From NCBI GenBank assembly GCA_964539415.1, contig CAZIID010000001.1:11979-75978 (forward strand): a stretch of DNA of 64,000 nucleotides, in the 5' to 3' direction. Within the stretch, counting starts at the first letter, position 1; every line of letters begins with the position of its first letter. Under the pieces are notes generated by a model, which worked only from the letters and a program-made list of their open reading frames with translations, searched no databases and was not told the origin of the DNA. Below are positions 6,719 through 54,572 of this stretch, one piece after another. Origin of the DNA: an uncultured Candidatus Saccharibacteria bacterium. Its GTDB lineage: Bacteria; Patescibacteriota; Minisyncoccia; Phycocordibacterales; GWA1-40-21. The position numbers and the translations under genes were made by a program.

Positions 6719-6749
6719 GAAGACATTATATCTTTTTGCGAGACAAACA

Positions 6750-6791
6750 AAAAGCGGGTTTTGAGGAAGCTTCCTCAAAACCCGCTTTTTT
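6750..6791 (-). terminator. Hairpin AAAAGCGGGTTTTGAGGAAGCTTCCTCAAAACCCGCTTTTTT
   Basis: Near-perfect palindrome with flanking A/T runs. Confidence 0.55.
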
Positions 6792-10237: not shown

Positions 10238-10245
10238 AATATTAT

Positions 10246-13344: not shown

Positions 13345-13389
13345 ATTAAAAAATTTGTAATAGAATATATAAATGATATAATTTATTAA

Positions 13390-14337
13390 ATGCAAAATCT
13401 TAGACAATATCTTCCGTCAAAAAAGTTCGCTATTATTTTAATCTCTATTATTGTTGCATTAGTAATCATCTTTATAACAAAAACTTTTGTTAACATTAAA
13501 GACTCAGGCGAAGCAGAGGTAACCGCAGAAGTAAAAAAAGAAATCGCTTTGCGTGAACAATTTTTAGAAGTAGATTCAGACAACGATGGATTGAAAGATT
13601 GGGAAGAATCTTTATGGCAAACCGATCCAAAAAATCCTGACACGGACGGGGACGGCACAAGCGACGGTGCTGAAATAAAAGCTTATAGAGACCCATTGAA
13701 AGCTGGACCTAATGACGGTTTTGACCCAAAAGAAATCGCTGAAACAAAAAAAATTATAGATGAATATGAAAGTCTTAGTGTAACAGAAAAATTTTCAAGA
13801 ACCTTATTTTCTCAATATCTAGCAACACAAAAAGCAGACACTGCTATGTCAGAAAGCGACGCCAACTATCTTGTTGAGAATATGCTCGCTGACCTACCAA
13901 AAGAAACCCTAACAGATAAATATTTATCAAGTGATATTTCTGTGCTGACAGATGCGACAACTGAAGACTTAGATATTTATAGAAGTAAACTCGTGAATAT
14001 ACTTGATAAAAACTTCTGGTCATATTTCACGACTGAGATGACTATTTTCCAAAATGCAATGAGCACAGACAGCAAAGATGAACTTAAAAAATTAGACCCG
14101 ATCATTCAAAGTTATAAAGATGCATCTATCGCAGTAAGTAAATTAAAAACTCCTGAAATATTTAAAACAAATGGTGTTAATATCGCAAACTTATTATATA
14201 ATATGTCCATATCAGTTCAAGGTTTCAAAACTGTTTTTGAAGATTCTATTCCTGCACTCATGGCCTATGATAATTTTTATGTTTATTACAATCTATTAGA
14301 CAAGGAAATTGCTGAATTAAATTTATATAATAACTAA
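13390..14337 (+). CDS. Secreted/membrane-anchored hypothetical protein with a thrombospondin-type-3-like Ca-binding Asp repeat (DSDNDGLKDWEE...DPKNPDTDGDGTSDGAE); first gene of the T4SS-like operon
   Basis: N-terminal TM/signal segment and DxDxDG repeats. Confidence 0.45.
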   Translation: MQNLRQYLPSKKFAIILISIIVALVIIFITKTFVNIKDSGEAEVTAEVKKEIALREQFLEVDSDNDGLKDWEESLWQTDPKNPDTDGDGTSDGAEIKAYRDPLKAGPNDGFDPKEIAETKKIIDEYESLSVTEKFSRTLFSQYLATQKADTAMSESDANYLVENMLADLPKETLTDKYLSSDISVLTDATTEDLDIYRSKLVNILDKNFWSYFTTEMTIFQNAMSTDSKDELKKLDPIIQSYKDASIAVSKLKTPEIFKTNGVNIANLLYNMSISVQGFKTVFEDSIPALMAYDNFYVYYNLLDKEIAELNLYNN

Positions 14338-14338
14338 T

Positions 14339-15994
14339 ATGTCAAAAAATATTGCAAAAAAAATCTTCTCCTTACTTCTTATCGTTTCTATAATTTCTCC
14401 GACCATTTTCCTTGCAATACCGCAAAAGACGGAAGCTATAACAGTTATAGATGTGAAGCAATTTGCAATTCAAGTCTATTCTGAAGGCAAAAAGATGTTA
14501 GTTAAAGTTATATTACAACAACTTACACAACAAATAGTAAATTGGATAGACAGCGGTTTTGACGGAAACCCAGCTTTCATTCAAAATCCTTCTGGTTTTT
14601 TGACTTCCGTGGCAGACCAGACTATTGGAGAATTTATTTTTAATGAAGAGGGATTAAAATTTTTGTGTGATCCATTTAAAATTCAAATACAACTTGCTTT
14701 GGGCTTGCAGTATCAGCCTTTCAAAGCAAAAGTTAACTGTACTTTATCAGATATTCTTACAAATACCGAGAATGCTTATAATGATTTTGTTGGTGGTGAC
14801 TTTATAAATGGAGGAGGGTGGGACTCTTGGTTTAGTCTTACAACAAACCCTGCAAATTCTCCCCAAGGAGCATTTCTTATAGCAAAAAGCGAGCTTGACG
14901 CAAGAATAGTAACATCACAAGAAAACTCTGACAGAGAGGTTGGTTGGGGACAAGGATCTTTATCCTTACAAAAGTGTACAGAAACTGAATATGAAGTTTC
15001 CAAAGATGGAACTAAAAAAGAAATAGGTAAAAATAGTTTTACTGGAAATCCTTTTTATAAAGAGGCTGACTATCAAACAAAAAATGACGACGAATCGTCT
15101 GCAGGACGAGGATGGGCAAAAGTTTCTTCAGCAGATGATTTCACCTATAAAGCAAAAGAAACAAAGTGTGCCGTAACAACACCGGGACAAATTATTGTTG
15201 AAAAATTTAGATTCTCAGATACCTCTTTTATAAGGACAATGGAGCTTGAAAGTGTTATGGGTGAATCTATAAATGCAATTGGTTCTGCTCTTGTGAATCA
15301 ACTTACTAAACAGCTTATGGCACAAGTCCAAGGTATGGCATCGGGAATCCTTGGAAATAAAAATGATGCTCCAGACTACAAGAAACAAGTTGAAGAGCAA
15401 CTTAAGCTTCTAGAAGAACAGCAAAATTCTCAAATAAACTCTGGAGGAACAAATAACGGCACTAATACAACTGACAATCTTTCAAATACAAGAAATCAAG
15501 CAATCTCGGCAATAAATAACCAACTAGAGATAGAAAATAACTATATTCAAGTCCGATCAGATGCAAAGACATTACTTGAAAACACAAGCGACGCATACAC
15601 AAATGCAAGAATCTGTGTAAATAGATTGGGTGGAACAGAAGCAGTAATAAGATCCACAATGTTTACCGACAGAATAAACATAATTCAAGGAAATATGACT
15701 GGGCCGGTCATTGGTGGTCAAGTTGTAAATATAAAAACCATTACTGAACAAAACGCAGTTGCAAGATCAAACAAAGATCAGCTTAATTCAAGAAAAGATA
15801 CTATCCCTTCTGCAACAAGTATACAAAATATCAACTCTGCAATATCTGGAATAACATCTGCTCCATTTCACGCTCAATCTGATATAAAAGAAAATCTCTT
15901 TACGACGAAAGTTGAAGATTGGGTCAAACAAGAGATATCAAGTTATGCTTCGCCAGACAAACCCTGCTCATTTACTTTTGATTCTTTGAAATAA
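14339..15994 (+). CDS. Secreted hypothetical protein (signal peptide), part of the T4SS-like operon
   Basis: N-terminal signal peptide. A 1-nt gap separates it from the previous gene. No recognisable domain. Confidence 0.4.
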   Translation: MSKNIAKKIFSLLLIVSIISPTIFLAIPQKTEAITVIDVKQFAIQVYSEGKKMLVKVILQQLTQQIVNWIDSGFDGNPAFIQNPSGFLTSVADQTIGEFIFNEEGLKFLCDPFKIQIQLALGLQYQPFKAKVNCTLSDILTNTENAYNDFVGGDFINGGGWDSWFSLTTNPANSPQGAFLIAKSELDARIVTSQENSDREVGWGQGSLSLQKCTETEYEVSKDGTKKEIGKNSFTGNPFYKEADYQTKNDDESSAGRGWAKVSSADDFTYKAKETKCAVTTPGQIIVEKFRFSDTSFIRTMELESVMGESINAIGSALVNQLTKQLMAQVQGMASGILGNKNDAPDYKKQVEEQLKLLEEQQNSQINSGGTNNGTNTTDNLSNTRNQAISAINNQLEIENNYIQVRSDAKTLLENTSDAYTNARICVNRLGGTEAVIRSTMFTDRINIIQGNMTGPVIGGQVVNIKTITEQNAVARSNKDQLNSRKDTIPSATSIQNINSAISGITSAPFHAQSDIKENLFTTKVEDWVKQEISSYASPDKPCSFTFDSLK

Positions 15995-16038
15995 GATTTA
16001 AGCAGAATTTAGTTGTGTGTTATAATTAGTTGCAAATA

Positions 16039-18543
16039 ATGCCAAGGAAGTTTTTTAAAATAATTTTTTCCGTATTTATCTTAATCACGGTTTTTAACTT
16101 TGCCCCATTTTCTGAAAAAGGGGAGGGGTTTGGTATTAAAAAATTAAATGCACAATCAACAGATTTGGGTAATGTTCCTTTTCAATATACAGCACCGAAC
16201 CCAATCAACGACTCAAATAGCGGGATACCGAATACTACGACACCTGCAAACACAAATACACAAACTCCACCAGCAACAGACCAAACTGTAAATACAACAA
16301 ACCCTAAGACGCCAGCAACCACAAATCCGAATACAGCAAATGTTGATAATAACCTTGCAAATAATCCTGCTTATAATACCCAGAATACAACCCAAGTAGG
16401 AAAAACAAACACAACTTATAAGGCTGCACCAACAGAAAAAAGTATTCAACAAATAAAGAATGAAATCGAACAAAAAAACCTTGAAATAACAAGACTTGGT
16501 GCAAATAAAGCAAGCGCATTAGAAATACAAAAAGCTCAGGCTGAGAGGACTGCCCTTCAAGCTGAACTTGCAAAAGCAGAAGAAAAGAATGTTGAAGCAG
16601 GTAAAAAGTGCAGCGATGGTTTTTTTGGAGCAATATGGTGTTCAGCAAAAGAGGCCGTCTCTGTTATTTTTGAAGGTCCTTTGGGAATTCTTTATTTAAT
16701 CATAAACGGTTTACTTTTACTAATCCAACACCTTGCTCAATGGATTTTCCAAATCGTAGCATCAGTTTTGGACTTTGCCATAATATTTTCAATTAATATA
16801 TCAACATATATTTCTCCTATGACTGATAGTATTGATACAACATGGGCTCTAATAAGAGATGTTTTTAATGTCATTTTTGTATTTCTACTACTTTATATAT
16901 CAATAAAAACAATTATTGGGACATCTATCACAACAACAAAACAAATGCTGGGTAGTATTGTTTTAGCAGCTGTTCTTGTTAATTTCAGTATGTTTATTAC
17001 AAAGACATTAATAGATGTAAGCAACCTTATTTCTCTAACACTATATAACAAAGTGACTATAGGTGGTAGTGTCGCTACATATTTTATGCAAGTCACAGGA
17101 ATTACCGAAACATTAAATTCTCCTGTAGTAGGAGGAGGAATAAATTCCATAATTTTTAACTCCACAAATGCAGCCCTTCTAATTATCGCCATCTGGGCAT
17201 TTGGAACCATGGCAATGCTTTTTTTGGTAAGAGGTGCTTTGTTTATTATATTAATAGTAACATCACCTGTTGCTATTGCTGGTTCTTTATTACCAATGAC
17301 TAAAGAATACAGCACAAAATGGTGGGACGCCTTGAACAGTCAACTTTTAGTAGCACCAATCTTTTTTATTTTCTTACTATTAACATTCAAATTTGCAGTC
17401 GGATTAAAAAGTGTACAAATGCCAATAGTGGCAAACAGTGTTGATATGAGCCCAATTTTTAAATATGGATTAATAATTACTATTTTAATAATAGGTACAA
17501 ACATAACAAAAAAGACCTCTGGAGCAGCTGGTCAGATGCTGACAAATATAGCAAAAACAGGAATGGGTATGGCTCTAGGCCTTGCAACTGGAGGGGCAGC
17601 TCTTGCAGGAAGTGCTCTTATTGGAGGTGCAGCTTCGAGAATTATGAGCCCAGACAGAATTGCAAAATTAAAAGAAAGAACCTTACAAGGTGGTATTGGA
17701 GGACAAATCGCCTCTCTACAACTTAAGGTTGGAGAAGCTGCAAAGAAAGGAACATATGATGTCAGAAACACTGGTTTGGGCCAATACACACAGAAAAAGA
17801 CTGGACTTAATTTAGGAACTGGTAACAAAACATCATACTCATCTAGAACTGAGGCTGAAGTTAAAGCAAAAACAGAAAAATTAAAGCTTGCAGATGAGAT
17901 AGTTCAAGACAAAGCGAAAGCTTATGCAAGAACCATCCCTGAAGAAGATCTCAAGACAAAGAGAGAAGGAGATGTTAAAAAGAAAGAAGATAAGATTAAA
18001 GAAAAACATGAAGGGGAAAACCTCAGACTATCAAGAAGAGAGGCTGATATTTCAGACAAAGCCGCGGCAGAATTAAGAAAGACAGCTGAAGAAGCTAGAA
18101 AAGCTACAGAAAAAGCAAGTCAAGATTATAAAGATAACGATGCAAAGAAAAAAGCTGAAATAGATAGAATAGAGGAAGAAAAGAAACGCAAACTTCAAGA
18201 AGTGGTTGAGGATGAAAAGAGAAAGAAAGCCGACCTAGAACAAGACAAAAAAGACCTTGCAGAAAAACAGAAAGAAGAGAAAAAGAAAAATGATGAAGAA
18301 ATTGAAATAATAGAGAGTGACGGTCAATATGCAAATGAAAGAGAAGCAATAAAAGCTGATTTCATAAAAGGAAAAGTAGGAGGAGGAGATAATCTAAATC
18401 TTGAAGCACAAAAACAAAAAAGCTCTTACGCAGAAAGTGTCTCAGCTAGACCATGGCATAAAAAATTATTATCATCAGCACATTATAGAAGAGAAGTAGC
18501 TGAACAAATTAGAGATGCAGCTAGACCTAAAAAAGACAAATGA
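16039..18543 (+). CDS. VirB6/TrbL-like polytopic inner-membrane protein with a T/N/P-rich N-terminal low-complexity region and a K/E-rich coiled-coil C-terminus
   Basis: Signal/TM segment, T-N-P-rich stretch, at least 6 predicted TM helices in the central region, and a charged C-terminal tail. It lies immediately upstream of VirB4-like and PrgI-like genes. The ORF track starts at a TTG at 16030; the ATG at 16039 is more likely. Confidence 0.45.
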   Translation: MPRKFFKIIFSVFILITVFNFAPFSEKGEGFGIKKLNAQSTDLGNVPFQYTAPNPINDSNSGIPNTTTPANTNTQTPPATDQTVNTTNPKTPATTNPNTANVDNNLANNPAYNTQNTTQVGKTNTTYKAAPTEKSIQQIKNEIEQKNLEITRLGANKASALEIQKAQAERTALQAELAKAEEKNVEAGKKCSDGFFGAIWCSAKEAVSVIFEGPLGILYLIINGLLLLIQHLAQWIFQIVASVLDFAIIFSINISTYISPMTDSIDTTWALIRDVFNVIFVFLLLYISIKTIIGTSITTTKQMLGSIVLAAVLVNFSMFITKTLIDVSNLISLTLYNKVTIGGSVATYFMQVTGITETLNSPVVGGGINSIIFNSTNAALLIIAIWAFGTMAMLFLVRGALFIILIVTSPVAIAGSLLPMTKEYSTKWWDALNSQLLVAPIFFIFLLLTFKFAVGLKSVQMPIVANSVDMSPIFKYGLIITILIIGTNITKKTSGAAGQMLTNIAKTGMGMALGLATGGAALAGSALIGGAASRIMSPDRIAKLKERTLQGGIGGQIASLQLKVGEAAKKGTYDVRNTGLGQYTQKKTGLNLGTGNKTSYSSRTEAEVKAKTEKLKLADEIVQDKAKAYARTIPEEDLKTKREGDVKKKEDKIKEKHEGENLRLSRREADISDKAAAELRKTAEEARKATEKASQDYKDNDAKKKAEIDRIEEEKKRKLQEVVEDEKRKKADLEQDKKDLAEKQKEEKKKNDEEIEIIESDGQYANEREAIKADFIKGKVGGGDNLNLEAQKQKSSYAESVSARPWHKKLLSSAHYRREVAEQIRDAARPKKDK

Positions 18544-19226
18544 ACGAAGAATTCAAAAAAATAATAGAAGAGAGAAAAAAGTCTTTACCAGAAGACATTA
18601 ATACTGCTATTGATTCAATAGATCTTGATTCAGCTCTTGCAGAAATAACAAAAAGGAACAACCTCCTTATAGATCAATCTGGATTATTATTCGCAGAAAT
18701 AACCCTTGCTTTGTATGGTATTGAACCACTATCTTCTCTTGTTTCAAATCTATCTAGAGAGCTTAGTATTTCTACTGACAAAGCAAACAAAATAGCTAAA
18801 GACGCAGACGATTTAATTTTTAGGGATATTAGAGCTAATTTAAAAGAACTGAATCGTCTTGAGGATGAAATAGAACAAGAAAAAAACATTAAACAAGGAG
18901 GGCTGTCTCGTGAACAAGTCTTAGATGAAATAGAAAACCCTCAAAAAGCAAGGCCTTCTGGCGACACAAGAACCAACGAGATTGAAATAAATTTACCGAT
19001 GAATACTCCGGAAAATGATATCATCATAAATAAAGTTGCTTTACCACAAAAAACAGATGGTATTACAGTAACAAATTCAGTTTCAGAGAAAAAAGAAATA
19101 GAAAATATTCTTGAAGCAAATTTAAACAGAACAGTTAGCTTACCAAAAGAACAAAAGATAGTTGAAGAAAAAACAAAGCTACCACAAAAGGGGAGCAGTG
19201 ACCCATACAGAGAGCCGATTGAATAA
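18540..19226 (+). CDS. Hypothetical coiled-coil protein; translationally coupled (ATGA overlap) to the VirB6-like gene
   Basis: Continuous ORF with a 4-nt overlap on the upstream gene. Confidence 0.4.
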   Translation: MNEEFKKIIEERKKSLPEDINTAIDSIDLDSALAEITKRNNLLIDQSGLLFAEITLALYGIEPLSSLVSNLSRELSISTDKANKIAKDADDLIFRDIRANLKELNRLEDEIEQEKNIKQGGLSREQVLDEIENPQKARPSGDTRTNEIEINLPMNTPENDIIINKVALPQKTDGITVTNSVSEKKEIENILEANLNRTVSLPKEQKIVEEKTKLPQKGSSDPYREPIE

Positions 19227-19230
19227 AATA

Positions 19231-19277
19231 AGATGGTTTGCTTCGTCGCTTTACTCCTCGCAAAGACGGAGGGTAAA
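19231..19277. mobile_element. Miniature repeat unit (AGATGGTTTGCTTCG...CTCGCAAAGACGGAGGG), one member of a family recurring in the window
   Basis: The AGATGGTTTGCTTCG and CTCGCAAAGAC motifs also occur at 25185-25212. Their reverse complements occur at 41210-41280. CTCGCAAAGAC occurs again at 47871-47881. Confidence 0.5.
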
Positions 19278-19292
19278 AAGAAATAAAACAGT

Positions 19293-19730
19293 ATGCAACA
19301 ATATCAAGTTCCACAATTTATAGAAGTTGAAGACAAGATTTTTGGGCCTTTAACACTCAAACAATTCATCTACATAGTAGGTGCTGCTGGTTTATCTTTC
19401 TTAATTTATAGATTTATACCTTATTCTTTTATATCTTTTCCTATAATATTTGCTGTTATAGCACTCGGACTAGCTCTTGCGTTCTACAAGGTAAATAACA
19501 GGTCTTTTATCTTTATGATGGAATCAGCTTTTTATTACTATATTGGTAGCAAATTATATATTTGGAAGAAAAAAGAAAAAACACCAGAAAGAAAAGCAGT
19601 AATGCAACCAAAAACAGCTAACACAGTATATGTTCCAAGATTAACCGAAAGTAAACTACGAAATCTTACTTGGAGCTTGGATATAAATGAAAAGATTGAT
19701 TCAACAAAAGGAAGACCCTCAGTGAAATAA
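19293..19730 (+). CDS. PrgI-family / VirB3-like small membrane protein
   Basis: N-terminus MQQYQVPQFIEVEDKIFGPLTLKQFIYIVGAAGLSFLIY followed by two TM helices, matching the PrgI-family pattern found beside VirB4 in Gram-positive-type T4SS. Confidence 0.5.
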   Translation: MQQYQVPQFIEVEDKIFGPLTLKQFIYIVGAAGLSFLIYRFIPYSFISFPIIFAVIALGLALAFYKVNNRSFIFMMESAFYYYIGSKLYIWKKKEKTPERKAVMQPKTANTVYVPRLTESKLRNLTWSLDINEKIDSTKGRPSVK

Positions 19731-19796
19731 CAGAACAAATTTCACAAGGTAGAAATAAATTACACTTTAATTATTTTGTAGTGTATAATATTAGAA

Positions 19797-20444
19797 ATGG
19801 CGACATCAAACGCTAAGGCGACACAAGATTTTATACCAGTAAAAGAAGTTAGGGATGGCATCATGGTTCTCAAAGATGGTTCATTGAGAGCTATCGTGAT
19901 GGTATCTTCTCTTAACTTTGCTCTAAAATCTCCAGACGAACAAGATGCTATTATTTATCAATTCCAAAACTTTCTAAACTCTTTGGATTTCTCTGTTCAG
20001 ATATGTATTCAATCAAGAGAACTTGATATAAGACCTTATATAGCACTACTTGAAGAGAGACTAAAAAACGAGCTGAATGAACTACTCAGAATGCAAATAA
20101 AAGAATATGTTCAATTCGTCAGAGCTTTCGTAGAACAGTCAAACATAATGACAAAAACATTCTTCACTGTCATTCCATACTCACCAAGTTTTATAAACCA
20201 AGGTTCATCACCATTTTCAAAATTTTCTGGAAGTTCATCAAACAAAGAAAAACAAACAAAAGAACAAGAACAAAATAGACTTTTTGAAGAGAGCAGAACA
20301 CAGTTAGAGCAGAGGACAAGTGTCGTTCAACAAGGACTTACAAGATGTGGATTAACAAGTATTCAGCTTGGTACAGATGAAATGGTAGAGCTTTTATATA
20401 AAACATTTAATCCAGGAGATATGGGTAAGCCTGCAGTTCAATAA
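19797..20444 (+). CDS. T4SS-associated protein resembling the extreme N-terminal region of VirB4/TraC (DFIPVKEVRDGIMVLKDGSLRAIV...); possibly the split-off 5' part of virB4
   Basis: Its stop lies 4 nt before the VirB4-like ORF start, in a different frame. The combined length (215 + 606 aa) equals that of a typical VirB4. Confidence 0.4.
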   Translation: MATSNAKATQDFIPVKEVRDGIMVLKDGSLRAIVMVSSLNFALKSPDEQDAIIYQFQNFLNSLDFSVQICIQSRELDIRPYIALLEERLKNELNELLRMQIKEYVQFVRAFVEQSNIMTKTFFTVIPYSPSFINQGSSPFSKFSGSSSNKEKQTKEQEQNRLFEESRTQLEQRTSVVQQGLTRCGLTSIQLGTDEMVELLYKTFNPGDMGKPAVQ

Positions 20445-20448
20445 AAAT

Positions 20449-22269
20449 ATGGGTATATTTGATTTTTTAAAAAACAATAAAGAAAAAGAACAGGAATTAA
20501 CATCTTTTTTACCGCATGAAATATATCAGGCTGGTGTACTTGAATTACAAGATGTTATCGCACCTTCTGCACTTAAAATAACACCAAATGAACTAAATCT
20601 CGGGGAAAAGATAGTAAAAACTTTCTTCGTTATTTCATATCCAAGATTTTTAGCACAAAGCTGGTTTGCTCCTATTATAAATCTAGACAAAATTTTTAAT
20701 GTTTCTATTTTCATACACCCGCTAGATACAACACAAATATTAAAACAGTTTCAAAAGAAAGTTGCAGAAGTTCAAAGCCAAATAAATACAAGAGAGAAAA
20801 AGGGTTTAGTTAGAGATCCACAGCTTGATATTGCTTATCAAGATCTAGAATCACTTAGAGATAACCTCCAGCAAGCCCAAGAAAAGCTTTTTGATACAGC
20901 TATTTATATTTCTATATATGGAAATACAGAAGAAGAAGTAAACAAACTTGAAGCAGAAATAAAATCAATCCTTGAATCAAAAATGATTTATGTAAAACCT
21001 GCACTTTTCCAACAAGAACAAGGCTACAAGAGCGTTCTACCTATAGCAACAGATGAATTAAAAGTATATTCCAAGCTCAATTCTTCACCACTTTCAAGTA
21101 TTTTCCCATTCGTTTCTTTTGACCTCACACAAGACAAGGGAATACTCTATGGTATAAACAGACACAATTCAGGTCTTGTTTTATTTGATAGATTTTCTCT
21201 AGAAAACTACAACTCTATTACTTTTGCAAAATCTGGATCAGGTAAATCATATATGTTAAAGCTTGAGATTCTTAGAAGTTTGATGTTTGACATAGACGTT
21301 ATGGTAATAGACCCCGAAAAAGAATATGAGTTCTTGGCAGAAGCCACAGGCGGAAAATCTTTCAATATTTCTTTAAACTCAAATAGCAATATTAACCCTT
21401 TTGACCTTCCAACACCTAGGGAAGATGAGTCTACGTCAGATGTTCTAAGATCAAACATTATAAACCTCGTTGGTTTGTTTAGAATAATGTTGGGCGGATT
21501 AAGTGCAGAAGAAGACTCTATTATTGACCAAGCTGTAGCAGAAACTTATGCCTTAAAGGATATTACCCCCGACTCAGATTTTTCAAACATTGAACCACCA
21601 CTACTTTCAGATTTTGAGCTTGTTCTTTCTGGTATGCAAGGCGCAGAAAGTCTTGTCCAAAAACTTTCTAAATATACTAGAGGAACATGGTCAGGTTTCT
21701 TAAATAGACCAACAAACGTAGATATCAACCACAAATTTATAGTATTTTCTATAAGAGATATGGAAGATGAGCTTAAACCCGTCGCGATGTATCTTGTTAC
21801 CAGATATATTTGGAATGCTGTAAGAAGAAACTTAAAGAAAAGACTGCTTGTTGTGGATGAGGCTTGGTGGATGATGAAATCAGAAGATACAGCTTCTTTC
21901 TTATACAGTATGGCAAAAAGAGGAAGAAAATATTTCTTGGCTCTTGCTACAATAACGCAAGACGTTGATGATTTCTTAAAATCTCCTTATGGACAGCCGA
22001 TTGTAGCAAACTCTTCAATTCAAATTCTTCTCAAACAATCTCCGTCTGTTGTAGACAATCTACAAAAAGTATTTAATCTTACCGATGAAGAAAAATATCT
22101 TCTACTTGAATCTAATGTGGGGGAGGGAATATTCTTCGTAGGACAAAAACACATTGCGATAAAGGTTACAGCTTCATACACTGAAGATCAGATCATAACT
22201 TCAGATCCATCCCAAATACTCGCTATTAAAAAGGCCAAAGAAGAACTCAGAAGCTCAACTGGTTTATAA
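20449..22269 (+). CDS. virB4: VirB4/TrbE/TraC-family type IV secretion ATPase
   Basis: Walker A FAKSGSGKSYMLK, Walker B LLVVDEAWWMM, and the conserved C-terminal ATPase region. Confidence 0.75.
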   Translation: MGIFDFLKNNKEKEQELTSFLPHEIYQAGVLELQDVIAPSALKITPNELNLGEKIVKTFFVISYPRFLAQSWFAPIINLDKIFNVSIFIHPLDTTQILKQFQKKVAEVQSQINTREKKGLVRDPQLDIAYQDLESLRDNLQQAQEKLFDTAIYISIYGNTEEEVNKLEAEIKSILESKMIYVKPALFQQEQGYKSVLPIATDELKVYSKLNSSPLSSIFPFVSFDLTQDKGILYGINRHNSGLVLFDRFSLENYNSITFAKSGSGKSYMLKLEILRSLMFDIDVMVIDPEKEYEFLAEATGGKSFNISLNSNSNINPFDLPTPREDESTSDVLRSNIINLVGLFRIMLGGLSAEEDSIIDQAVAETYALKDITPDSDFSNIEPPLLSDFELVLSGMQGAESLVQKLSKYTRGTWSGFLNRPTNVDINHKFIVFSIRDMEDELKPVAMYLVTRYIWNAVRRNLKKRLLVVDEAWWMMKSEDTASFLYSMAKRGRKYFLALATITQDVDDFLKSPYGQPIVANSSIQILLKQSPSVVDNLQKVFNLTDEEKYLLLESNVGEGIFFVGQKHIAIKVTASYTEDQIITSDPSQILAIKKAKEELRSSTGL

Positions 22270-22309
22270 TAACTTTTTGAAAAAAACAATCCGTGTTATA
22301 ATTTTAAGA

Positions 22310-23317
22310 ATGATTTTAGGTAAAATCAAAAAACTTTTAAGTATATCTTTTGCTTTAGTGTTCTTTTTAACATTTAGTTTTTCAACGAATGTTTTTTCTC
22401 AATCCAGCTCAATATATAATCCCAAAATATCAATAAGCCCATCAAATCCAAAATATGGTCAAGATGTTACTGTTTCTGTAAGCTTAATTTCTATAAATAT
22501 AGACAGTGCAAATATCCTTTGGCAAGTAAACGGAGTTACAAAAAAACAGGGAACAGGTGAGAAAACTTTTTCTTTCAAGACCGACAGCACAGGAAAAACT
22601 TCTTTGGTAAAAGTAATAATTACAGAATCAGATGGAACAACCTATGAAAACAGCTACGAAATAGCACCTTCAGAAGTTGATCTTATAATAGAACCTCTAT
22701 CTTTTGTTCCTCCATTTTATAAAGGTAAATCAGCCTTTGTTCCACAAGGAAGTGCAAAAATCGTTGCTATTACAAATATTCTTTCAGATGGAACTAAAAT
22801 TTCAAATAACAACTTAATTTTTAAATGGAAAAAGAATGGAATGGTCTTATCCGATAGCTCTGGACGAGGAAAAAATACTCTCATAGTAAATGGCTCTGTG
22901 CCAATCAAAGATATAAATATAGAATTAGAAGTCTCCAATTCAACCTCAAAAGTTGTTGGTTCAAATAGTATTATTCTTACGCCATACAATACAAAAGTAG
23001 CTTTGTATGAAAACAATGCTCTATACGGAAAACTTTTCAATAAAGAACTTACAGGATATATAAATATTGGGACTCAAGAAGAATTTTTAATCGCAGCATA
23101 TCCTATGTTTTTCAATATAACAGATGAAACTGGTGATGAAATTACATACAAATGGTCTGTGGGGAATAAAAGCACAGCAACAGATGGAGATGTAAATACC
23201 TTATTGCTAAGACAAGTAGGGAATGTAGGTAATTCTTCAATTTCATTAAAAGTAGATGGTGTTTCAAGAATATTTCAGTATGGTTCAAGTGGTTTTAGTT
23301 TAATGTTTGGAGAATAA
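22310..23317 (+). CDS. Secreted/membrane-anchored hypothetical protein of the T4SS-like operon
   Basis: Signal/TM N-terminus and a beta-rich sequence. The ATG at 22310 lies 7 nt after TGTTATAAT; the ORF track begins at a TTG at 22277. Confidence 0.4.
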   Translation: MILGKIKKLLSISFALVFFLTFSFSTNVFSQSSSIYNPKISISPSNPKYGQDVTVSVSLISINIDSANILWQVNGVTKKQGTGEKTFSFKTDSTGKTSLVKVIITESDGTTYENSYEIAPSEVDLIIEPLSFVPPFYKGKSAFVPQGSAKIVAITNILSDGTKISNNNLIFKWKKNGMVLSDSSGRGKNTLIVNGSVPIKDINIELEVSNSTSKVVGSNSIILTPYNTKVALYENNALYGKLFNKELTGYINIGTQEEFLIAAYPMFFNITDETGDEITYKWSVGNKSTATDGDVNTLLLRQVGNVGNSSISLKVDGVSRIFQYGSSGFSLMFGE

Positions 23318-23338
23318 TTATTAATTTAGAATAAAAAA

Positions 23339-23728
23339 ATGTTAAATTCCCTAATTAAAAGAAAAAACCTAGTAAAAAAGACTTTTTCTATTTTAAGTAT
23401 GTTAATAGCCTTACCTTCAATTATCTACGCAGAAGCTGTGAATTTTGTACCTTTAGAAACAAGTTCTCCTTGGGCCAAAAGCATTGACCCAAATAAACCA
23501 GCAGAATTCTTCCAAAGTGTTTTTAATACTGGTCTTGCTATCGCTGCCACACTTGCAGTTGTGATGATTATGTATGGAGGCGTAAAATATATGACAACAG
23601 ATGCATGGAATAACAAAGAAGAAGCGAAGGAAATCATTCAAAACGCCGTATATGGTCTAGTTCTTGCTTTGGTTTCTTACTTAATACTTTACACAATAAA
23701 CCCAGACATATTAAATGTTAGACTATAA
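23339..23728 (+). CDS. TrbC/VirB2-like pilin
   Basis: 129 aa: a signal peptide, a first hydrophobic helix (LAIAATLAVVMIMYGG), a short charged loop, and a second hydrophobic helix (AVYGLVLALVSYLILY). This architecture is typical of VirB2/TrbC pilins. Confidence 0.45.
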   Translation: MLNSLIKRKNLVKKTFSILSMLIALPSIIYAEAVNFVPLETSSPWAKSIDPNKPAEFFQSVFNTGLAIAATLAVVMIMYGGVKYMTTDAWNNKEEAKEIIQNAVYGLVLALVSYLILYTINPDILNVRL

Positions 23729-23843
23729 TAAGTACTTGTCCCGTTGTAAATTCAGCTGATACAAGTAAAATAAAAGGGCAAGATTGTTTAAGATAATAAA
23801 TAAGATTAAAAAAAATTATGAGGATTAAAATTTTACAACTGGG

Positions 23844-25091
23844 ATGAACATATCAAAAAAATCAGCCATAATATTAATACTTGGAGCAGTAATACTTCTT
23901 ATTGGTTTATTTTTATATTTTTATTTATCTCCAACTAAAACAAACACAACAAACACTGTAGCGACTTCCACAAAAAACGTTTCTTTTGGTGATACATCCA
24001 AAACTAACAATGAAATACCGACAGATACCACAAAAACCGGCACGACAACCCAAGTAAGTTCAAATAGACCAGCAGAAACATTAAGACAAATATTTTCTGA
24101 ACCAACTTCAGGTTCTATTGTTTATACAAAAAACAAAGACACAGTAGCAAGATTTGTAGAAAGAAGTAATGGTAATGTGTATGAAGTAAAAAGAAACTCT
24201 TCTGAAACTATAAGATTGACCAATACTACTATCCCAAAAATTCAAGAAGCTATCTGGGACAAAGGTGGTAATGATATTCTTTTTAGATATCTAAATGAAA
24301 GTAGGGGAGATCAGATAGAAACATTTGCTGGAAAAATAAAACTTTCAACCTCAACTTCAAATGAATTCTTTGGTGAAATACTCGGGACTTTTTTGCCTGC
24401 TAAACTTCTTCAAGTTACAACAAACCCTTCTTCCGGTAAGATTGCTTATATTCAGAACAAGATAAACAACGACGGAACATATATTTATATATCAAATACC
24501 AATGGTTCAAATAAGGTTCAATTGGCAGATATACCACTTTCTGAGGTATCAATATCTTGGCCAAAAGAAAACACAATCGCCTTAATTACTAAACCCTCAT
24601 CAAGATACGCAGGATTCTTATACTTTATAAATACACAAGAAGGTGTTTTAAGAAAGGTTATCGGGGATGTTTGGGGTCTTAATGCTTTAGTAAATTCACA
24701 AGCAAATAAAGTTGTATACTCAAAAACATCAAGAAACGAACCTGTAATAAATTTTTATGATATGACTACAGGAGAAGACACGAGCCTCCAAATAAAAACC
24801 CTTGCAGATAAATGTGTGTGGGGAAAGAAAGATACAGAGGTTATATTCTGCGCTGTGCCAAATACAATACCAGCGGGGGATTATCCTGACAGTTGGTATC
24901 AAGGAAAAACTTTTTTCAATGATAATATCTGGAAAATTAATTTAGAGACTGGACAAAGCACAATGATACGCGATATAGCTTCAGATGGGCTCTCCATAGA
25001 CGCTATGAGCCTCGCCATAAGTGATAAAGACGACTTCTTAGTGTTTACTAATAAAAAAGATTTGTCGCTCTGGGGATTGATTATAGAGTAA
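23844..25091 (+). CDS. Secreted protein with TolB/PD40-like beta-propeller repeats; last gene of the T4SS-like operon
   Basis: N-terminal TM/signal segment, a T/N-rich linker, and PD40-like repeats (IAYIQNKINNDGTYIYISNTNGSNKVQLADIP). Confidence 0.4.
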   Translation: MNISKKSAIILILGAVILLIGLFLYFYLSPTKTNTTNTVATSTKNVSFGDTSKTNNEIPTDTTKTGTTTQVSSNRPAETLRQIFSEPTSGSIVYTKNKDTVARFVERSNGNVYEVKRNSSETIRLTNTTIPKIQEAIWDKGGNDILFRYLNESRGDQIETFAGKIKLSTSTSNEFFGEILGTFLPAKLLQVTTNPSSGKIAYIQNKINNDGTYIYISNTNGSNKVQLADIPLSEVSISWPKENTIALITKPSSRYAGFLYFINTQEGVLRKVIGDVWGLNALVNSQANKVVYSKTSRNEPVINFYDMTTGEDTSLQIKTLADKCVWGKKDTEVIFCAVPNTIPAGDYPDSWYQGKTFFNDNIWKINLETGQSTMIRDIASDGLSIDAMSLAISDKDDFLVFTNKKDLSLWGLIIE

Positions 25092-26446: not shown

Positions 26447-26492
26447 TGTCCTCAAATTCTATACGAAAAGAATCCAAAACTCAAGGAAAAGT

Positions 26493-54432: not shown

Positions 54433-54572
54433 TTGTGAATTATTAATCTAATAGGATTTATCCTGTTAGAAATTGCGATTAGTAGTATAAAAAATATTTG
54501 TTTTATAAGGTTGTTGTATAATTTAAAATGTTGTGGGTTACGAAATCAAAATCGCACTCTACTTCTAATAGG

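What the first reader, a model, noticed from the sequence alone, without database searches (positions are those of the whole stretch)
13390..25091. Ten-gene type IV secretion-like operon (VirB6-like, PrgI-like, split VirB4, VirB2-like pilin, secreted proteins) with no relaxase or coupling protein in the window
Ten co-directional genes are separated by 0-120 nt, some with ATGA overlaps. The set encodes a VirB4-family ATPase with clear Walker A and B motifs, an upstream PrgI/VirB3-like membrane protein, and an 830-aa VirB6-like polytopic protein with unusual T/N/P-rich and K/E-rich extensions. It also encodes a VirB2/TrbC-like pilin and five secreted or membrane-anchored proteins of unknown function, including a Ca-binding Asp-repeat protein and a PD40 beta-propeller protein. 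No relaxase, VirD4, VirB11 or lytic transglycosylase is recognisable in the window. This points to a minimal, monoderm-type T4SS whose cargo and role are open: cell-cell contact, DNA or nutrient exchange with a host, or an episymbiotic lifestyle. Half of its genes have no assignable function.
Basis: partly seen in the sequence, partly recalled or inferred. Interest (0 to 1): 0.7.

Follow-up and report, generated by a model that had tools for sequence, protein, structure and literature searches.

The report
Patescibacterial chromosomal type IV secretion locus
This is the chromosomal, relaxase-free type IV secretion gene cluster that nearly all ultra-small Patescibacteria (here a Paceibacteria/Parcubacteria genome) carry next to their replication origin; the kind was described in 2023-2025, so the locus is real and biologically important but not new.

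Summary
g5 is PrgI/VirB3. g6 and g7 are a split VirB4: a TrsD-like N-terminal piece plus a CD1110-family ATPase with Walker A and B motifs. g9 is a VirB2-like pilin and g1 a Ca-binding TSP3-repeat protein. g3 is polytopic with only weak TrbL/PrgH similarity.

No relaxase, coupling protein, VirB11, VirB1 or VirB8 homologue was found in the window or within about 10 kb beyond either end. The flanks are housekeeping genes (uvrD, ksgA; jag, yidC, dnaA, dnaN).

The block is not mobile. The order ksgA-(g1)-g2...g10-yidC-dnaA-dnaN is collinear in all 53 related Paceibacteria loci that hold at least 8 of the 10 genes. VirB4 (median 77% identity) is better conserved there than DnaA (60%).

This architecture was published for Patescibacteria in 2025 (PMC12102498). 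The homologous system is essential for epibiotic growth of Southlakia epibionticum (PMC10633639).

Five accessory proteins stay unassigned. g8 is an anchored triple Ig-like protein (confident model). g10 is probably a TolB-like propeller. g2 and g4 match nothing known.

Side findings: genome-wide leaderless-type promoters split the "operon" into several units, and relatives carry hypervariable C-terminal extensions on the pilin.

Verdict: interpretation supported; a new member of a known kind.

The parts
13390..14337 (+). g1: membrane-anchored protein (one N-terminal TM helix) with two Ca-binding TSP3 Asp repeats and a C-terminal domain of unknown function. It is the variable member of the block.
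   Evidence: Pfam TSP3_bac E 4e-9; TM 12-30. A homologue is present in only 27 of the 80 related loci, median 29% identity. An extended -10 box (TGATATAAT) ends 7 nt before the ATG.
14339..15994 (+). g2: secreted or anchored protein of 551 aa. It has a conserved Cys/Trp-rich N-terminal domain and a confident C-terminal long-helix bundle. Function unknown; a VirB5-like tip or adaptor role is a lead only.
16039..18543 (+). g3: polytopic membrane protein and candidate extended VirB6/PrgH. After a signal-like helix comes a T/N/P-rich region (55% T+N+P over residues 45-140), then about 8 hydrophobic helices (residues 212-489), then a K/E-rich tail (53% charged over residues 600-800). The longest ORF starts at TTG 16030; ATG 16039 is the likely start.
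   Evidence: TM scan and composition. The window protein has no Pfam hit, but TrbL PF04610 is the top family among orthologues (4 of 35, best E 1.6e-4). hhalign of the family profile against pCF10 PrgH gives P 6e-4, with g3 388-499 aligned to PrgH 142-265 and covering invariant R401 and P413. Against Tn916 Orf15 the P is 2e-3 over the same region. No PDB sequence hit. The -10 box TGTTATAAT ends 12 nt before ATG 16039.
18540..19226 (+). g4: cytoplasmic 228-aa protein of unknown function, translationally coupled to g3 by an ATGA overlap. It has a conserved N-terminal helical region and an invariant C-terminal DPYRE(P)I motif.
   Evidence: No TM helix. D221, Y223 and E225 are invariant, and P222 and R224 nearly so, across 31 orthologues. 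No Pfam or PDB relative.
19293..19730 (+). g5: PrgI/VirB3-family small membrane protein with a hydrophobic hairpin.
   Evidence: Pfam PrgI PF12666 E 3e-10, 40.9 bits against a cut-off of 27. Hydrophobic stretch about 20-67. Median 52% identity in 77 of 80 relatives.
19797..20444 (+). g6: TrsD-like protein, equivalent to the N-terminal domain of VirB4 encoded as a separate gene.
   Evidence: NCBIfam VirB4_plasma E 4e-12 (profile positions 99-225), CD1110 VirB4 positions 1-120 at 3e-7, TrsD NF041427 at 7e-6. JGI precomputed Pfam TraC-like PF26593. A separate ORF of about 212 aa in all 80 relatives.
20449..22269 (+). g7: VirB4-family ATPase (Gram-positive CD1110/PrgJ type) lacking the N-terminal domain. 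Walker A lies at nt 21226-21249 and Walker B at nt 21844-21861.
   Evidence: NCBIfam NF045971 E 2e-110, 370 bits, above the cut-off of 325, profile positions 175-734 of 752. Pfam P-loop_TraG 7e-26. PDB 4ag5 VirB4 4e-39 and TrwK 2e-8. BLASTP to PrgJ 2e-39 over PrgJ 228-772. 74-82% identical in 80 species-level genomes.
22310..23317 (+). g8: membrane-anchored surface protein with an N-terminal TM helix and three tandem Ig-like beta-sandwich domains. It may act as a stalk or adhesin. The longest ORF starts at TTG 22277; ATG 22310 is the likely start and the called start in public records.
   Evidence: AF2 pLDDT 93.7, pTM 0.78. Foldseek against PDB returns only tandem Ig/FN3 adhesin-type hits (Hoc, SiiE, GhpA), E 1e-9 to 1e-6. 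A W-x-x-N/D-G motif recurs three times in the 90-sequence family. P0078 is identical from M12. A -10 box lies 7 nt upstream of ATG 22310 and is conserved in 41 of 54 relatives.
23339..23728 (+). g9: VirB2/TrbC-like T4SS pilin in its minimal 129-aa form, with a long signal peptide and two hydrophobic helices.
   Evidence: Pfam T4SS_pilin PF18895 E 4e-9, 36.8 bits against a cut-off of 26.6. Weak NCBIfam hit to the Mbov_0395 pilin-like family. Hydrophobic segments at 11-39, 57-75 and 99-117. Most relatives carry the same module plus an unrelated C-terminal extension of 150-300 aa.
23844..25091 (+). g10: membrane-anchored protein with a T-rich linker and a probable TolB-like beta-propeller ectodomain.
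   Evidence: TM 8-26. The family profile hits TolB 7mx5 at E 0.0034 over residues 197-313. NCBIfam Dpp5 propeller region 2e-5, far below cut-off. No PD40 Pfam hit in 35 orthologues. Present in 65 of 80 loci, median 32% identity.

Best explanation
[quoted passage not shown] It belongs to the lineage-specific VirB4 clade that is nested in the monoderm MPF_FATA class, here in a Paceibacteria (Parcubacteria) genome. It sits between ksgA and the jag-yidC-dnaA-dnaN origin region.

**Shown here**
- It encodes a membrane energising and translocon core: PrgI/VirB3 (g5), a two-piece VirB4 made of TrsD-like g6 and ATPase g7, and a polytopic VirB6 candidate (g3).
- It encodes a VirB2-like pilin (g9).
- It encodes five lineage-specific accessory proteins. 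Four are exported or membrane-anchored: a Ca-binding TSP3 protein (g1), a helical Cys-rich protein (g2), a triple-Ig protein (g8) and a probable propeller (g10). One is cytoplasmic (g4).
- Within about 84 kb there is no relaxase, coupling protein, VirB11, VirB1, VirB8 or outer-membrane core.

**Inferred mechanism**
- The VirB3/VirB4/VirB6 core, anchored in the single membrane, extracts pilin from the membrane and polymerises a VirB2-type filament or short conduit through the thin wall.
- The fast-evolving surface proteins, and in relatives the variable C-terminal domains on the pilin, make contact with the host cell.
- The machine serves the obligate host-dependent lifestyle by moving proteins or other molecules across the contact. 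It does not conjugate DNA.

**Inferred by homology.** Its importance follows from the essentiality of the homologous system for epibiotic growth in Southlakia epibionticum. The extreme conservation of VirB4 in this lineage points the same way.
For: **Family assignments.**

**Split VirB4.** The split is conserved in 80 of 80 relatives.

**Lineage and synteny**
- VirB4 relatives at 74-82% identity occur in at least 579 species-representative genomes, and the named ones are all Paceibacteria/Parcubacteria-type MAGs.
- All 53 loci holding at least 8 of the 10 genes are collinear and flanked by ksgA on one side and yidC-dnaA-dnaN on the other.

**Conservation gradient** (median identity)
- Core: VirB4 77%, TrsD 58%, PrgI 52%.
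- Surface and accessory: 27-41%.
- Housekeeping for comparison: DnaA 60%, DnaN 52%.
- This fits a conserved motor with a diversifying host interface.

**No transfer or mobility genes**
- None in the Pfam scans of the window.
- None in about 10 kb beyond each end on the 102-kb source contig.
- tblastn with pCF10 and Tn916 T4CP, relaxase, VirB1 and VirB8 proteins found nothing in 1.5 Mb of window plus related loci.

**Literature**
- PMC12102498 describes the same clade, gene set, lack of relaxase and dnaA/ksgA proximity.
- PMC10633639 reports that the T4SS genes and pilin array are essential in S. epibionticum and lack recognisable coupling and relaxase proteins.
- PMC12857230 is a review of these systems.
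- PMC10936435 finds T4SS pilins among the most highly expressed unknown genes of Paceibacterales co-cultured with methanogens.
Against: **Function and structure are untested**
- No functional data exist for any Paceibacteria system. The essentiality data come from a different class (Saccharimonadia) whose locus differs: it has a pilin array and adjacent peptidase and lysozyme genes.
- Neither a pilus nor any substrate has been observed.

**Weak or missing assignments**
- The VirB6 assignment of g3 rests on weak similarities (P 6e-4 to 2e-3; 4 of 35 orthologues hit TrbL).
- No VirB8-like or wall-hydrolase component was identified, so the envelope-spanning part is unexplained.

**Limits of the searches**
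- A coupling protein or relaxase could lie elsewhere in the genome. Only about 84 kb was inspected, and PMC12102498 reports that most patescibacterial VirD4 homologues lie far from virB4.
- The 80 compared loci were picked by VirB4 similarity, which inflates VirB4's apparent relative conservation somewhat.
- Membership of g1 is doubtful, since it is present in about a third of the related loci.
Confidence: 0.72

Rival explanations
1. It is a pilus-biogenesis and adhesion organelle only. The VirB3/4/6 core assembles a VirB2-type filament, with Ig-like, propeller and Ca-binding surface partners, that attaches the cell to its host. No substrate is translocated.
For: - A pilin is present, but no coupling protein or recognisable substrate is.
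- The accessory proteins look like adhesin or stalk modules: three Ig domains and TSP3 repeats.
- In relatives the pilin carries species-specific C-terminal domains.
- Pilins are highly expressed in Paceibacterales co-cultures (PMC10936435).
Against: - The genome already has two type IV pilus loci in this window (PilB 39453-41135 and 52672-54432, PilC, pseudopilins). Such loci are the documented adhesion and motility organelle in Saccharibacteria (PMC12857230).
- VirB4 is more conserved than DnaA, and the system is essential in Southlakia. Both are easier to explain by a supply function than by one of several adhesins.
Confidence: 0.14
2. It is a DNA-uptake or DNA-exchange T4SS, like the H. 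pylori ComB or archaeal Ced systems. It would import host DNA as a nucleotide source or for recombination, which needs no relaxase.
For: - There is no relaxase or T4CP, as in uptake-type T4SSs.
- Patescibacteria lack nucleotide biosynthesis (PMC10633639).
- In class ABY1 the T4SS genes sit beside comF, recG and radA (PMC12102498).
Against: - In S. epibionticum, deleting comEC abolished competence without affecting viability, whereas the T4SS is essential. DNA uptake through ComEC is therefore not the essential role (PMC12857230).
- The Patescibacteria VirB4 clade is separate from the archaeal importer clades.
- No DNA-binding or DNA-processing gene lies in the conserved block.
Confidence: 0.08
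3. It is the mating-pore module of an integrative conjugative element, or a decayed remnant of one. Its relaxase, T4CP and integrase would lie outside the inspected region.
For: - The genes are homologous to Gram-positive conjugation genes (PrgI, TrsD, PrgJ-type VirB4).
- A tyrosine recombinase lies about 22 kb upstream of g1 on the source contig.
- PMC12102498 finds VirD4 homologues elsewhere in many patescibacterial genomes.
Against: - The same gene order, between the same housekeeping genes (ksgA; yidC-dnaA-dnaN), is found in 53 of 53 informative loci from different species.
- GC content is uniform across the region.
- Housekeeping genes (CTP synthase, tRNA genes, CCA-adding enzyme, uvrD, ksgA) fill the space between the recombinase and the block. 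The recombinase has the XerC/D domain layout.
- Only 109 relaxases were found in 3,035 patescibacterial genomes, and 15 of them lie near virB4.
Confidence: 0.04

Closest known systems
Patescibacteria-clade T4SS, as surveyed in Quinonero-Coronel et al. 2025 (PMC12102498), Paceibacteria arrangement
   Same: - VirB4 of the monoderm type with a separate TrsD-like gene directly upstream.
- PrgI/VirB3, a VirB6 candidate and a VirB2-like pilin nearby.
- No relaxase.
- Chromosomal position next to ksgA and dnaA/dnaN.
- Vertical inheritance within the class.
   Different: Nothing essential differs. This genome has a single bare 129-aa pilin rather than an array or an extended pilin. It has a fused MFS/spermidine synthase gene inserted between ksgA and the block. 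The five accessory genes characterised here are unannotated ('grey') in that survey.
Southlakia epibionticum ML1 T4SS (SEML1_0006-0019; Wang et al. 2023, PMC10633639)
   Same: - Gram-positive-like subunit composition plus VirB2-like pilins.
- No recognisable relaxase or coupling protein in the cluster.
- Origin-proximal, judging by the low locus-tag numbers.
- TrsD, PrgI and VirB6 homologues are reported there as essential (as summarised in PMC12102498).
   Different: It belongs to a different class (Saccharimonadia). It has an array of six divergent pilins and essential peptidase and lysozyme genes downstream of virB4. The window has one pilin and no hydrolase inside the block. Whether g1, g2, g4, g8 or g10 have counterparts there was not tested.
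pGO1/pSK41/pIP501-type Gram-positive conjugative T4SS (TrsC-TrsD-TrsE module)
   Same: The order small VirB3-like protein, then TrsD, then VirB4 is the same as g5-g6-g7. The order in these plasmids is from my knowledge of them plus the statement in PMC12102498 that TrsD is specific to the pGO1 subclass. There is no outer-membrane core.
   Different: Those systems sit on plasmids with a relaxase, T4CP, VirB1-type hydrolase and VirB8-like proteins, and they have no pilin. Here all of those are missing and a pilin is present.
pCF10 Prg/Pcf T4SS (Enterococcus faecalis)
   Same: - PrgI family hit for g5.
- g7 aligns to PrgJ residues 228-772 at E 2e-39.
- The g3 family profile aligns weakly to the C-terminal half of PrgH.
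   Different: PrgJ is a single 796-aa protein, whereas here it is split. tblastn found no counterpart of PrgK (hydrolase), PrgL or PrgD (VirB8-like), PcfC (T4CP) or PcfG (relaxase). The PrgA/B/C adhesins were not searched for and nothing like them appeared in the Pfam scans. pCF10 is a pheromone-inducible plasmid, not a core chromosomal locus.

Membership tests
Type IV secretion system (VirB4-defined superfamily) | VirB4-family ATPase with Walker A and B motifs | tested here: met
   NF045971 E 2e-110, 370 bits against a cut-off of 325. PDB 4ag5 at 4e-39. Walker A is AKSGSGKS and Walker B is LLVVDE.
Type IV secretion system (VirB4-defined superfamily) | VirB3-like small membrane partner encoded next to VirB4 | tested here: met
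   g5 hits PrgI PF12666 at E 3e-10, above the gathering score. It lies 66 nt upstream of g6.
Type IV secretion system (VirB4-defined superfamily) | VirB6/TrbL/PrgH-type polytopic channel protein | tested here: inconclusive
   g3 has about 8 hydrophobic helices but no Pfam hit of its own. TrbL hits 4 of 35 orthologues, best E 1.6e-4. hhalign gives P 6e-4 to PrgH (probability 29%) and P 2e-3 to Tn916 Orf15. No structure model could be made because the homologue search returned 2 proteins.
Patescibacteria VirB4 clade within MPF_FATA (PMC12102498) | VirB4 phylogenetically inside the Patescibacteria clade nested in MPF_FATA | not tested
   No tree was built. Indirect support: the best profile is the Firmicutes CD1110 family, and all 80 closest relatives (74-82% identity) are Paceibacteria/Parcubacteria-type or unclassified MAGs.
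Patescibacteria VirB4 clade within MPF_FATA (PMC12102498) | Separate TrsD-like gene adjacent to virB4 | tested here: met
   g6 hits NF041427 TrsD at 7e-6 and VirB4 N-terminal profile positions at 4e-12. It ends 4 nt before g7, and the arrangement is conserved in 80 of 80 loci.
Patescibacteria VirB4 clade within MPF_FATA (PMC12102498) | VirB2-like pilin near virB4 despite monoderm-type machinery | tested here: met
   g9 hits PF18895 at E 4e-9, two genes downstream of g7.
Patescibacteria VirB4 clade within MPF_FATA (PMC12102498) | Chromosomal, near dnaA/dnaN/ksgA (Paceibacteria pattern), with no relaxase nearby | tested here: met
   ksgA is at 11018-11818, yidC at 25715-26455, dnaA at 27256-28593 and dnaN at 28809-29909. 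The same order holds in 53 of 53 loci. No relaxase was found.
Conjugative element (plasmid or ICE) | Relaxase (MOB) gene and oriT | tested here: not met
   No relaxase domain appears in any window ORF of 110 aa or more, or within 10 kb beyond the window ends. tblastn with PcfG and MobT gave no hits. oriT was not searched. The rest of the genome was not available.
Conjugative element (plasmid or ICE) | Type IV coupling protein (VirD4, TcpA or FtsK-like) | tested here: not met
   No hit in the same scans. tblastn with PcfC and Tn916 Orf21 gave no hits in 1.5 Mb. One elsewhere in the genome cannot be excluded.
Conjugative element (plasmid or ICE) | Integrase at one edge, variable presence and location among related genomes | tested here: not met
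   The nearest tyrosine recombinase is about 22 kb upstream, beyond housekeeping genes. The block sits at the same chromosomal position in all informative relatives. GC content is uniform.
Gram-positive T4SS accessory set (VirB8-like NTF2 protein; VirB1-like wall hydrolase) | Bitopic VirB8-like protein and a peptidoglycan hydrolase encoded within the cluster | tested here: not met
   No Pfam, NCBIfam or PDB-profile hit for g1, g2, g4, g8 or g10 points to either. The g8 model is three Ig-like domains, not NTF2. The g2 family has no invariant acidic residue. tblastn with PrgK, PrgL, PrgD and Orf14 was negative. The folds of g1, g4 and g10 were not modelled. An M23/LysM endopeptidase lies outside the block at 6952-7971.
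TolB/PD40 beta-propeller (for g10) | PD40 or TolB-type propeller blades detectable by profile or fold | tested here: inconclusive
   The family profile hits TolB 7mx5 at E 0.0034. The Dpp5 propeller region scores 2e-5, far below its cut-off. No PD40 Pfam hit appears in 35 orthologues.

The most novel reading that the evidence does not exclude
The conserved, origin-proximal machine may not be an exporter at all. It may be a host-tapping conduit. In this reading the VirB3/VirB4/VirB6 core and the VirB2-like filament form a feeding tube. Through it the ultra-small cell would draw lipids, nucleotides or other metabolites from its host, or exchange them in both directions. The lineage-specific proteins would form its wall-spanning stalk and host-recognition tip: g2 (helical), g8 (triple Ig), g10 (propeller) and g1 (Ca-binding), plus the species-specific C-terminal pilin domains seen in relatives. 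The five unassigned conserved genes would then be a new structural module that replaces VirB8, VirB1 and the adhesins of Gram-positive systems.
Probability: 0.15. Interest if true: 0.85.

Novelty: new member of a known kind. Interest (0 to 1): 0.35.

Why it matters
Patescibacteria make up a large share of bacterial diversity, and how they live off their hosts is largely unknown. Their relaxase-free T4SS is the only T4SS reported to be essential for its bearer (PMC12857230). Its cargo and direction of transport are open questions.

This window adds no new kind of system, but it gives a clean Paceibacteria example and three usable facts.

1. The motor ATPase is more conserved than DnaA, while every surface-exposed partner diverges to about 30% identity. 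That is the signature of a host interface.
2. A fixed set of five accessory genes travels with the core across the class. One of them is now confidently a membrane-anchored triple-Ig protein. These are concrete candidates for the missing envelope-spanning and host-contact parts.
3. In relatives the pilin is fused to hypervariable C-terminal domains.

These points sharpen hypotheses for the few cultivable Patescibacteria-host pairs, but they do not answer the functional question.

Tried and rejected
**Structure model of the VirB6 candidate g3.** The word-indexed homologue search with its TM domain returned only 2 proteins, so no usable alignment existed. The second structure job went to g8 instead. 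VirB6 status therefore rests on weak profile evidence.

**Fold of g2**
- The model was of moderate quality (pLDDT 71).
- Foldseek found nothing with E<0.1.
- The profile against PDB returned only Vipp1/PspA coiled coils.
- I do not call g2 VirB5-like.

**g2 as a lytic transglycosylase.** Rejected as unsupported: no invariant acidic residue appears in 76 sequences, and there is no hydrolase hit.

**g8 as a VirB8 analogue.** Rejected: the confident model is three Ig-like sandwiches, not an NTF2 fold.

**g4.** Pfam scans of 31 orthologues and a PDB profile search gave only noise.

**g10.** A Pfam scan of 35 orthologues gave no propeller family.

**g6 against PrgJ by BLASTP.** Not significant. Only profiles show the relationship.

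**ICE hypothesis.** Rejected on synteny and on walks beyond both window ends.

**FtsK/HerA alternative for g7.** Rejected. DUF87/HerA is only a weak secondary Pfam hit (1e-5), against VirB4 models at 1e-110.

**Promoter and terminator consensus scan of the locus.** Counts were no higher than in shuffled sequence. The informative signal was positional, namely -10 boxes just upstream of start codons.

**Not used.** The representative-library HMMER job was not run. It returns no annotation, and its top 150 hits would all be close patescibacterial orthologues.

Full report

The window holds ten + strand ORFs from 13390 to 25091. They are separated by 1, 35, -4, 66, 66, 4, 7, 21 and 115 nt; the -4 is an ATGA overlap between g3 and g4. 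I number them g1 to g10.

| Gene | Coordinates | Assignment | Evidence |
|---|---|---|---|
| g1 | 13390-14337 | Two bacterial TSP3 Ca-binding Asp repeats behind one TM helix | Pfam E 4e-9 |
| g5 | 19293-19730 | PrgI family | PF12666, E 3e-10, above the gathering score |
| g7 | 20449-22269 | VirB4 ATPase | See below |
| g9 | 23339-23728 | T4SS pilin with a long signal peptide and two hydrophobic helices | PF18895, E 4e-9 |

For g7 the evidence is as follows:
- NCBIfam 'VirB4-like conjugal transfer ATPase, CD1110 family', E 2e-110, 370 bits against a cut-off of 325.
- Pfam P-loop_TraG, 7e-26.
- The solved VirB4 C-terminal domain 4ag5, 4e-39, and TrwK, 2e-8.
- pCF10 PrgJ, 2e-39.
- Walker A is AKSGSGKS (residues 260-267) and Walker B is LLVVDE (residues 466-471).

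The 'split VirB4' is genuine:
- g7 matches positions 175-734 of the 752-position CD1110 profile and PrgJ residues 228-772.
- g6 (19797-20444) matches positions 1-120 of the same profile, positions 99-225 of the mycoplasma ICE VirB4 profile (E 4e-12), and the TrsD family (7e-6).
- The two genes are in different frames, 4 nt apart.
- The same two-gene arrangement occurs in all 80 related loci I retrieved, so it is ancestral rather than a sequencing frameshift.

**2.

*g3 (VirB6 candidate).* The architecture matches the description:
- a signal-like helix;
- a T/N/P-rich stretch (55% T+N+P over residues 45-140);
- about eight hydrophobic helices between residues 212 and 489;
- a K/E-rich tail (53% charged over residues 600-800).

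The VirB6 label rests on weak similarity:
- The window protein hits no Pfam or NCBIfam model.
- Among 35 orthologues, TrbL/VirB6 PF04610 is the most frequent family, but only in 4 of them (best E 1.6e-4).
- A profile of the family aligns to the C-terminal half of pCF10 PrgH with P 6e-4 (probability 29%). It aligns to Tn916 Orf15 with P 2e-3. Both alignments cover the same segment, which holds the family's invariant R401 and P413.
- There is no PDB sequence hit.
- I could not model it, because the homologue search with its TM domain returned two proteins.

Position, topology and the published survey make VirB6 the best guess, not a demonstrated membership.

*g10 (propeller).* It has a TM anchor and a T-rich linker. 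Its family profile hits TolB at E 0.0034. No PD40 Pfam hit appears in 35 orthologues. 'Probable TolB-like propeller' is as far as the data go.

*'One operon'.* See section 6.

**3. Surroundings: a core chromosomal locus, not a mobile element**

Every other ORF of 110 aa or more in the window was scanned.

- Upstream: CCA-adding enzyme, a Mg-chelatase-like ATPase, a C39 peptidase, an M23/LysM endopeptidase, UvrD, KsgA and a fused MFS/spermidine synthase.
- Downstream: Jag/KhpB, YidC, DnaA, DnaN, a class A PBP, RuvC, YebC, RuvB, two PilB-type ATPases with PilC and pseudopilins, two large LamG surface proteins, PolA, trigger factor, NusA, MetRS and TatD.

No relaxase, coupling protein, VirB11-size ATPase, lytic transglycosylase or integrase is present.

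The window is part of a 102-kb JGI metagenome contig. Walking about 10 kb past each end gave these results:
- On one side SIMPL, SecE, NusG, L11, NDK and nucleotide-metabolism genes.
- On the other side CTP synthase, a TrmB-like regulator and a tyrosine recombinase with the XerC/D domain layout, about 22 kb from g1.

GC content is uniform at about 0.31-0.35 across the locus.

**4. Relatives and synteny**

A scan of one genome per GTDB species with g7 found at least 579 loci that encode a relative. The best 80 share 74-82% amino-acid identity. Those that carry a name are Paceibacterota/Parcubacteria MAGs (Taylor-, Zambryski-, Kaiser-, Campbell- and Wolfebacteria), or are labelled generically.

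tblastn of the window's proteins against these loci shows the order ksgA-(g1)-g2-g3-g4-g5-g6-g7-g8-g9-g10-(jag)-yidC-dnaA-dnaN throughout. All 53 loci holding at least 8 of the 10 genes are collinear. This excludes an integrative conjugative element and shows vertical inheritance at a fixed site by the origin region.

Median identities to the window proteins:

| Protein | Median identity |
|---|---|
| VirB4 (g7) | 77% |
| DnaA | 60% |
| TrsD (g6) | 58% |
| UvrD | 56% |
| PrgI (g5) | 52% |
| DnaN | 52% |
| KsgA | 50% |
| YidC | 45% |
| pilin (g9) | 41% |
| g10 | 32% |
| g2 | 31% |
| g8 | 31% |
| g4 | 30% |
| g1 | 29% |
| g3 | 27% |

The loci were selected by VirB4 similarity, which favours VirB4 somewhat. 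Even so, a motor more conserved than the replication initiator, paired with surface components that have diverged to about 30%, is the pattern expected of an important machine whose exterior meets a changing partner.

g1 is found in only 27 of the 80 loci. The stable block is therefore g2 to g10.

tblastn with pCF10 PcfC (VirD4), PcfG (relaxase), PrgK, PrgL, PrgD, PrgH and PrgI found nothing in the 1.5 Mb of window plus loci. The same holds for Tn916 Orf21, MobT and Orf13/14/15/17. Only PrgJ hit. This is a low-sensitivity check but agrees with the profile scans.

**5. The unassigned genes**

- *g8.* With a 90-sequence alignment it gave a confident model (pLDDT 93.7, pTM 0.78): an N-terminal TM helix followed by three tandem Ig-like beta-sandwiches. 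A W-x-x-N/D-G motif recurs in each. Foldseek against the PDB returned only tandem Ig/FN3 modules of adhesins and capsid decorations (Hoc, SiiE, GhpA), E 1e-9 to 1e-6. It is a membrane-anchored stalk- or adhesin-like protein, not a VirB8 (NTF2) analogue.
- *g4.* It is cytoplasmic and overlaps the g3 stop codon. Its very C-terminus carries an invariant DPYRE(P)I motif. No family or structure relative was found.
- *g1.* Beyond its TSP3 repeats it has no detectable relatives.

So half of the genes indeed remain unassigned, and no VirB8-like or VirB1-like component is recognisable inside the block. The only wall hydrolase nearby is the M23/LysM endopeptidase at 6952-7971. It sits on the other strand, 5.4 kb upstream.

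**6. Transcription units**

In this genome a -10 box TA[TAC]AAT, usually as extended TGnTATAAT, ends 5-12 nt (mode 7) upstream of 17 of 49 start codons. The rate at internal in-frame ATGs is 5 of 304 (binomial p about 2e-18). Shine-Dalgarno motifs are almost absent. This indicates widespread leaderless or near-leaderless transcripts.

Inside the locus such boxes precede g1, g2, g3 (at ATG 16039), g6 and g8 (at ATG 22310). In relatives they are conserved before the g8 homologue (41 of 54) and the g5 homologue (42 of 75). The background rate before g7 is 6 of 80.

The block is therefore more likely several co-directional units (g1; g2; g3-g4-g5; g6-g7; g8-g9-g10) than one operon. Public gene calls also start g8 at that ATG.

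**7. How it most likely works**

*Shown.* The locus encodes a monoderm-type inner-membrane T4SS core (VirB3-like, two-piece VirB4, probable VirB6), a VirB2-like pilin, and four exported or anchored accessory proteins. There are no DNA-processing or coupling functions nearby. The locus is fixed in the core genome.

*Inferred.*
- VirB4 hexamers docked on VirB3 and VirB6 extract pilin from the membrane and polymerise a filament or short conduit.
- The Ig-like, propeller, Ca-binding and helical proteins span the thin wall or cap the structure and contact the host.
- The system serves host dependence rather than conjugation.

*Support from the literature.*
- In Southlakia epibionticum the T4SS genes and pilin array are essential for epibiotic growth and lack recognisable coupling and relaxase proteins (PMC10633639).
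- comEC deletion there abolishes competence without loss of viability, so ComEC-dependent DNA uptake is not the essential role (PMC12857230).
- T4SS pilins are among the most highly expressed unknown genes of Paceibacterales growing with methanogens (PMC10936435).

Cargo and direction of transport remain unknown. I rank the alternatives as follows:
- adhesion-only pilus, about 0.14;
- DNA-uptake device, about 0.08;
- ICE module, about 0.04.

**8. Comparison with what is known**

The closest description is the 2025 survey of Patescibacteria T4SS (PMC12102498). It reports the following:
- 2,425 VirB4 proteins form a Patescibacteria clade nested in MPF_FATA.
- TrsD is the most abundant neighbour (1,664 next to virB4).
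- PrgI/VirB3, VirB6 and VirB2-like pilins lie nearby.
- VirB8 and VirB1 are rare.
- Relaxases are almost absent (109 in 3,035 genomes).
- In Paceibacteria, virB4 lies close to dnaA, dnaN, ksgA and rnpA/rpmH.

The window matches this on every feature I could test. The one defining feature I did not test is the VirB4 phylogeny itself.

Relative to the Gram-positive conjugative prototypes, it shares the TrsC/PrgI-TrsD-VirB4 module of the pGO1/pIP501 subclass and the PrgJ-type ATPase. It lacks relaxase, T4CP, hydrolase and VirB8-like proteins, and it adds a pilin.

**9. Novelty and score**

The kind is known and well surveyed. This is one more member, from a public metagenome contig.

What this analysis adds is modest:
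- a confident fold for one accessory protein;
- negative results for the others;
- the conservation gradient;
- the leaderless promoter layout;
- the observation that relatives fuse unrelated C-terminal domains of 150-300 aa to the pilin module.

The open biological question, what this essential relaxase-free T4SS moves and in which direction, is important. This locus alone does not make it more testable than the published systems do. Interest is 0.35.

Noticed in passing
whole window; in the locus at 13374-13382, 14324-14331, 16019-16027, 19783-19789, 22295-22303: Genome-wide leaderless-type promoter layout. TA[TAC]AAT, mostly as extended TGnTATAAT, ends 5-12 nt (mode 7) upstream of 17 of 49 start codons. 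The rate at internal in-frame ATGs is 5 of 304 (p about 2e-18). Shine-Dalgarno motifs are nearly absent (2 of 49). Boxes precede g1, g2, g3, g6 and g8, and are conserved before the g8 (41 of 54) and g5 (42 of 75) homologues in relatives.
   Followed up: partly
L005:12907-13806, L010:12854-13870, L058:13462-14496, L074:13236-14174 (homologues of window 23339-23728): In most related Paceibacteria the VirB2-like pilin module (signal peptide plus two hydrophobic helices) is followed in the same ORF by a C-terminal extension of 150-300 aa. The extension differs completely between species; the median homologue length is 338 aa. The window and L003 have the bare 128-129 aa pilin. This may be a species-specific surface decoration of the filament.
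   Followed up: partly
window 20449-22269 compared with 27256-28593 and 28809-29909: Across the 80 related genomes VirB4 (median 77% identity) is more conserved than DnaA (60%), DnaN (52%), KsgA (50%) or YidC (45%). Part of this may come from selecting the loci by VirB4 similarity.
   Followed up: partly
window 11782-13344: A fused MFS/spermidine synthase gene (NCBIfam NF037959, E 8e-75) sits between ksgA and g1. It is absent from that position, and from the whole +/-10 kb, in all 80 related loci. It is a lineage-specific insertion next to the T4SS block.
   Followed up: partly
window 18540-19226 (C-terminus at about 19200-19223): The cytoplasmic protein g4 ends in a DPYRE(P)I motif. D, Y and E are invariant, and P and R nearly so, in 31 orthologues that are otherwise about 30% identical. 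It looks like a short linear docking motif; the partner is unknown.
   Followed up: no
window 10231-10620 and 10593-10952: Two small overlapping ORFs lie between uvrD and ksgA. They have no Pfam or NCBIfam hit and no counterpart in any related locus. From memory their sequences (…YHIFNRG…, …GSLFQGPFKS…YLLYLSAYVNLN…) resemble a split REP-associated/IS200-like Y1 transposase. The profile scans did not confirm this.
   Followed up: no
window 34788-38012 and 42462-45302: Two large paralogous secreted proteins (1074 and 946 aa) have similar N-termini (…ATLYF…WDT..NWW…) and C-terminal LamG (Laminin_G_3) domains. One weakly resembles the TafC fimbrial protein (2e-11). They lie among two type IV pilus loci: PilB at 39453-41135, and PilB, PilC and pseudopilins at 52672-57268.
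   Followed up: no
window 6281-6778 and 6952-7971 (- strand): A stand-alone C39-family cysteine peptidase and an M23/LysM peptidoglycan endopeptidase lie 5-7 kb upstream of the T4SS block. The published survey notes M23/LysM domains on some patescibacterial 'VirB1' candidates. Whether this one serves the T4SS was not tested.
   Followed up: no
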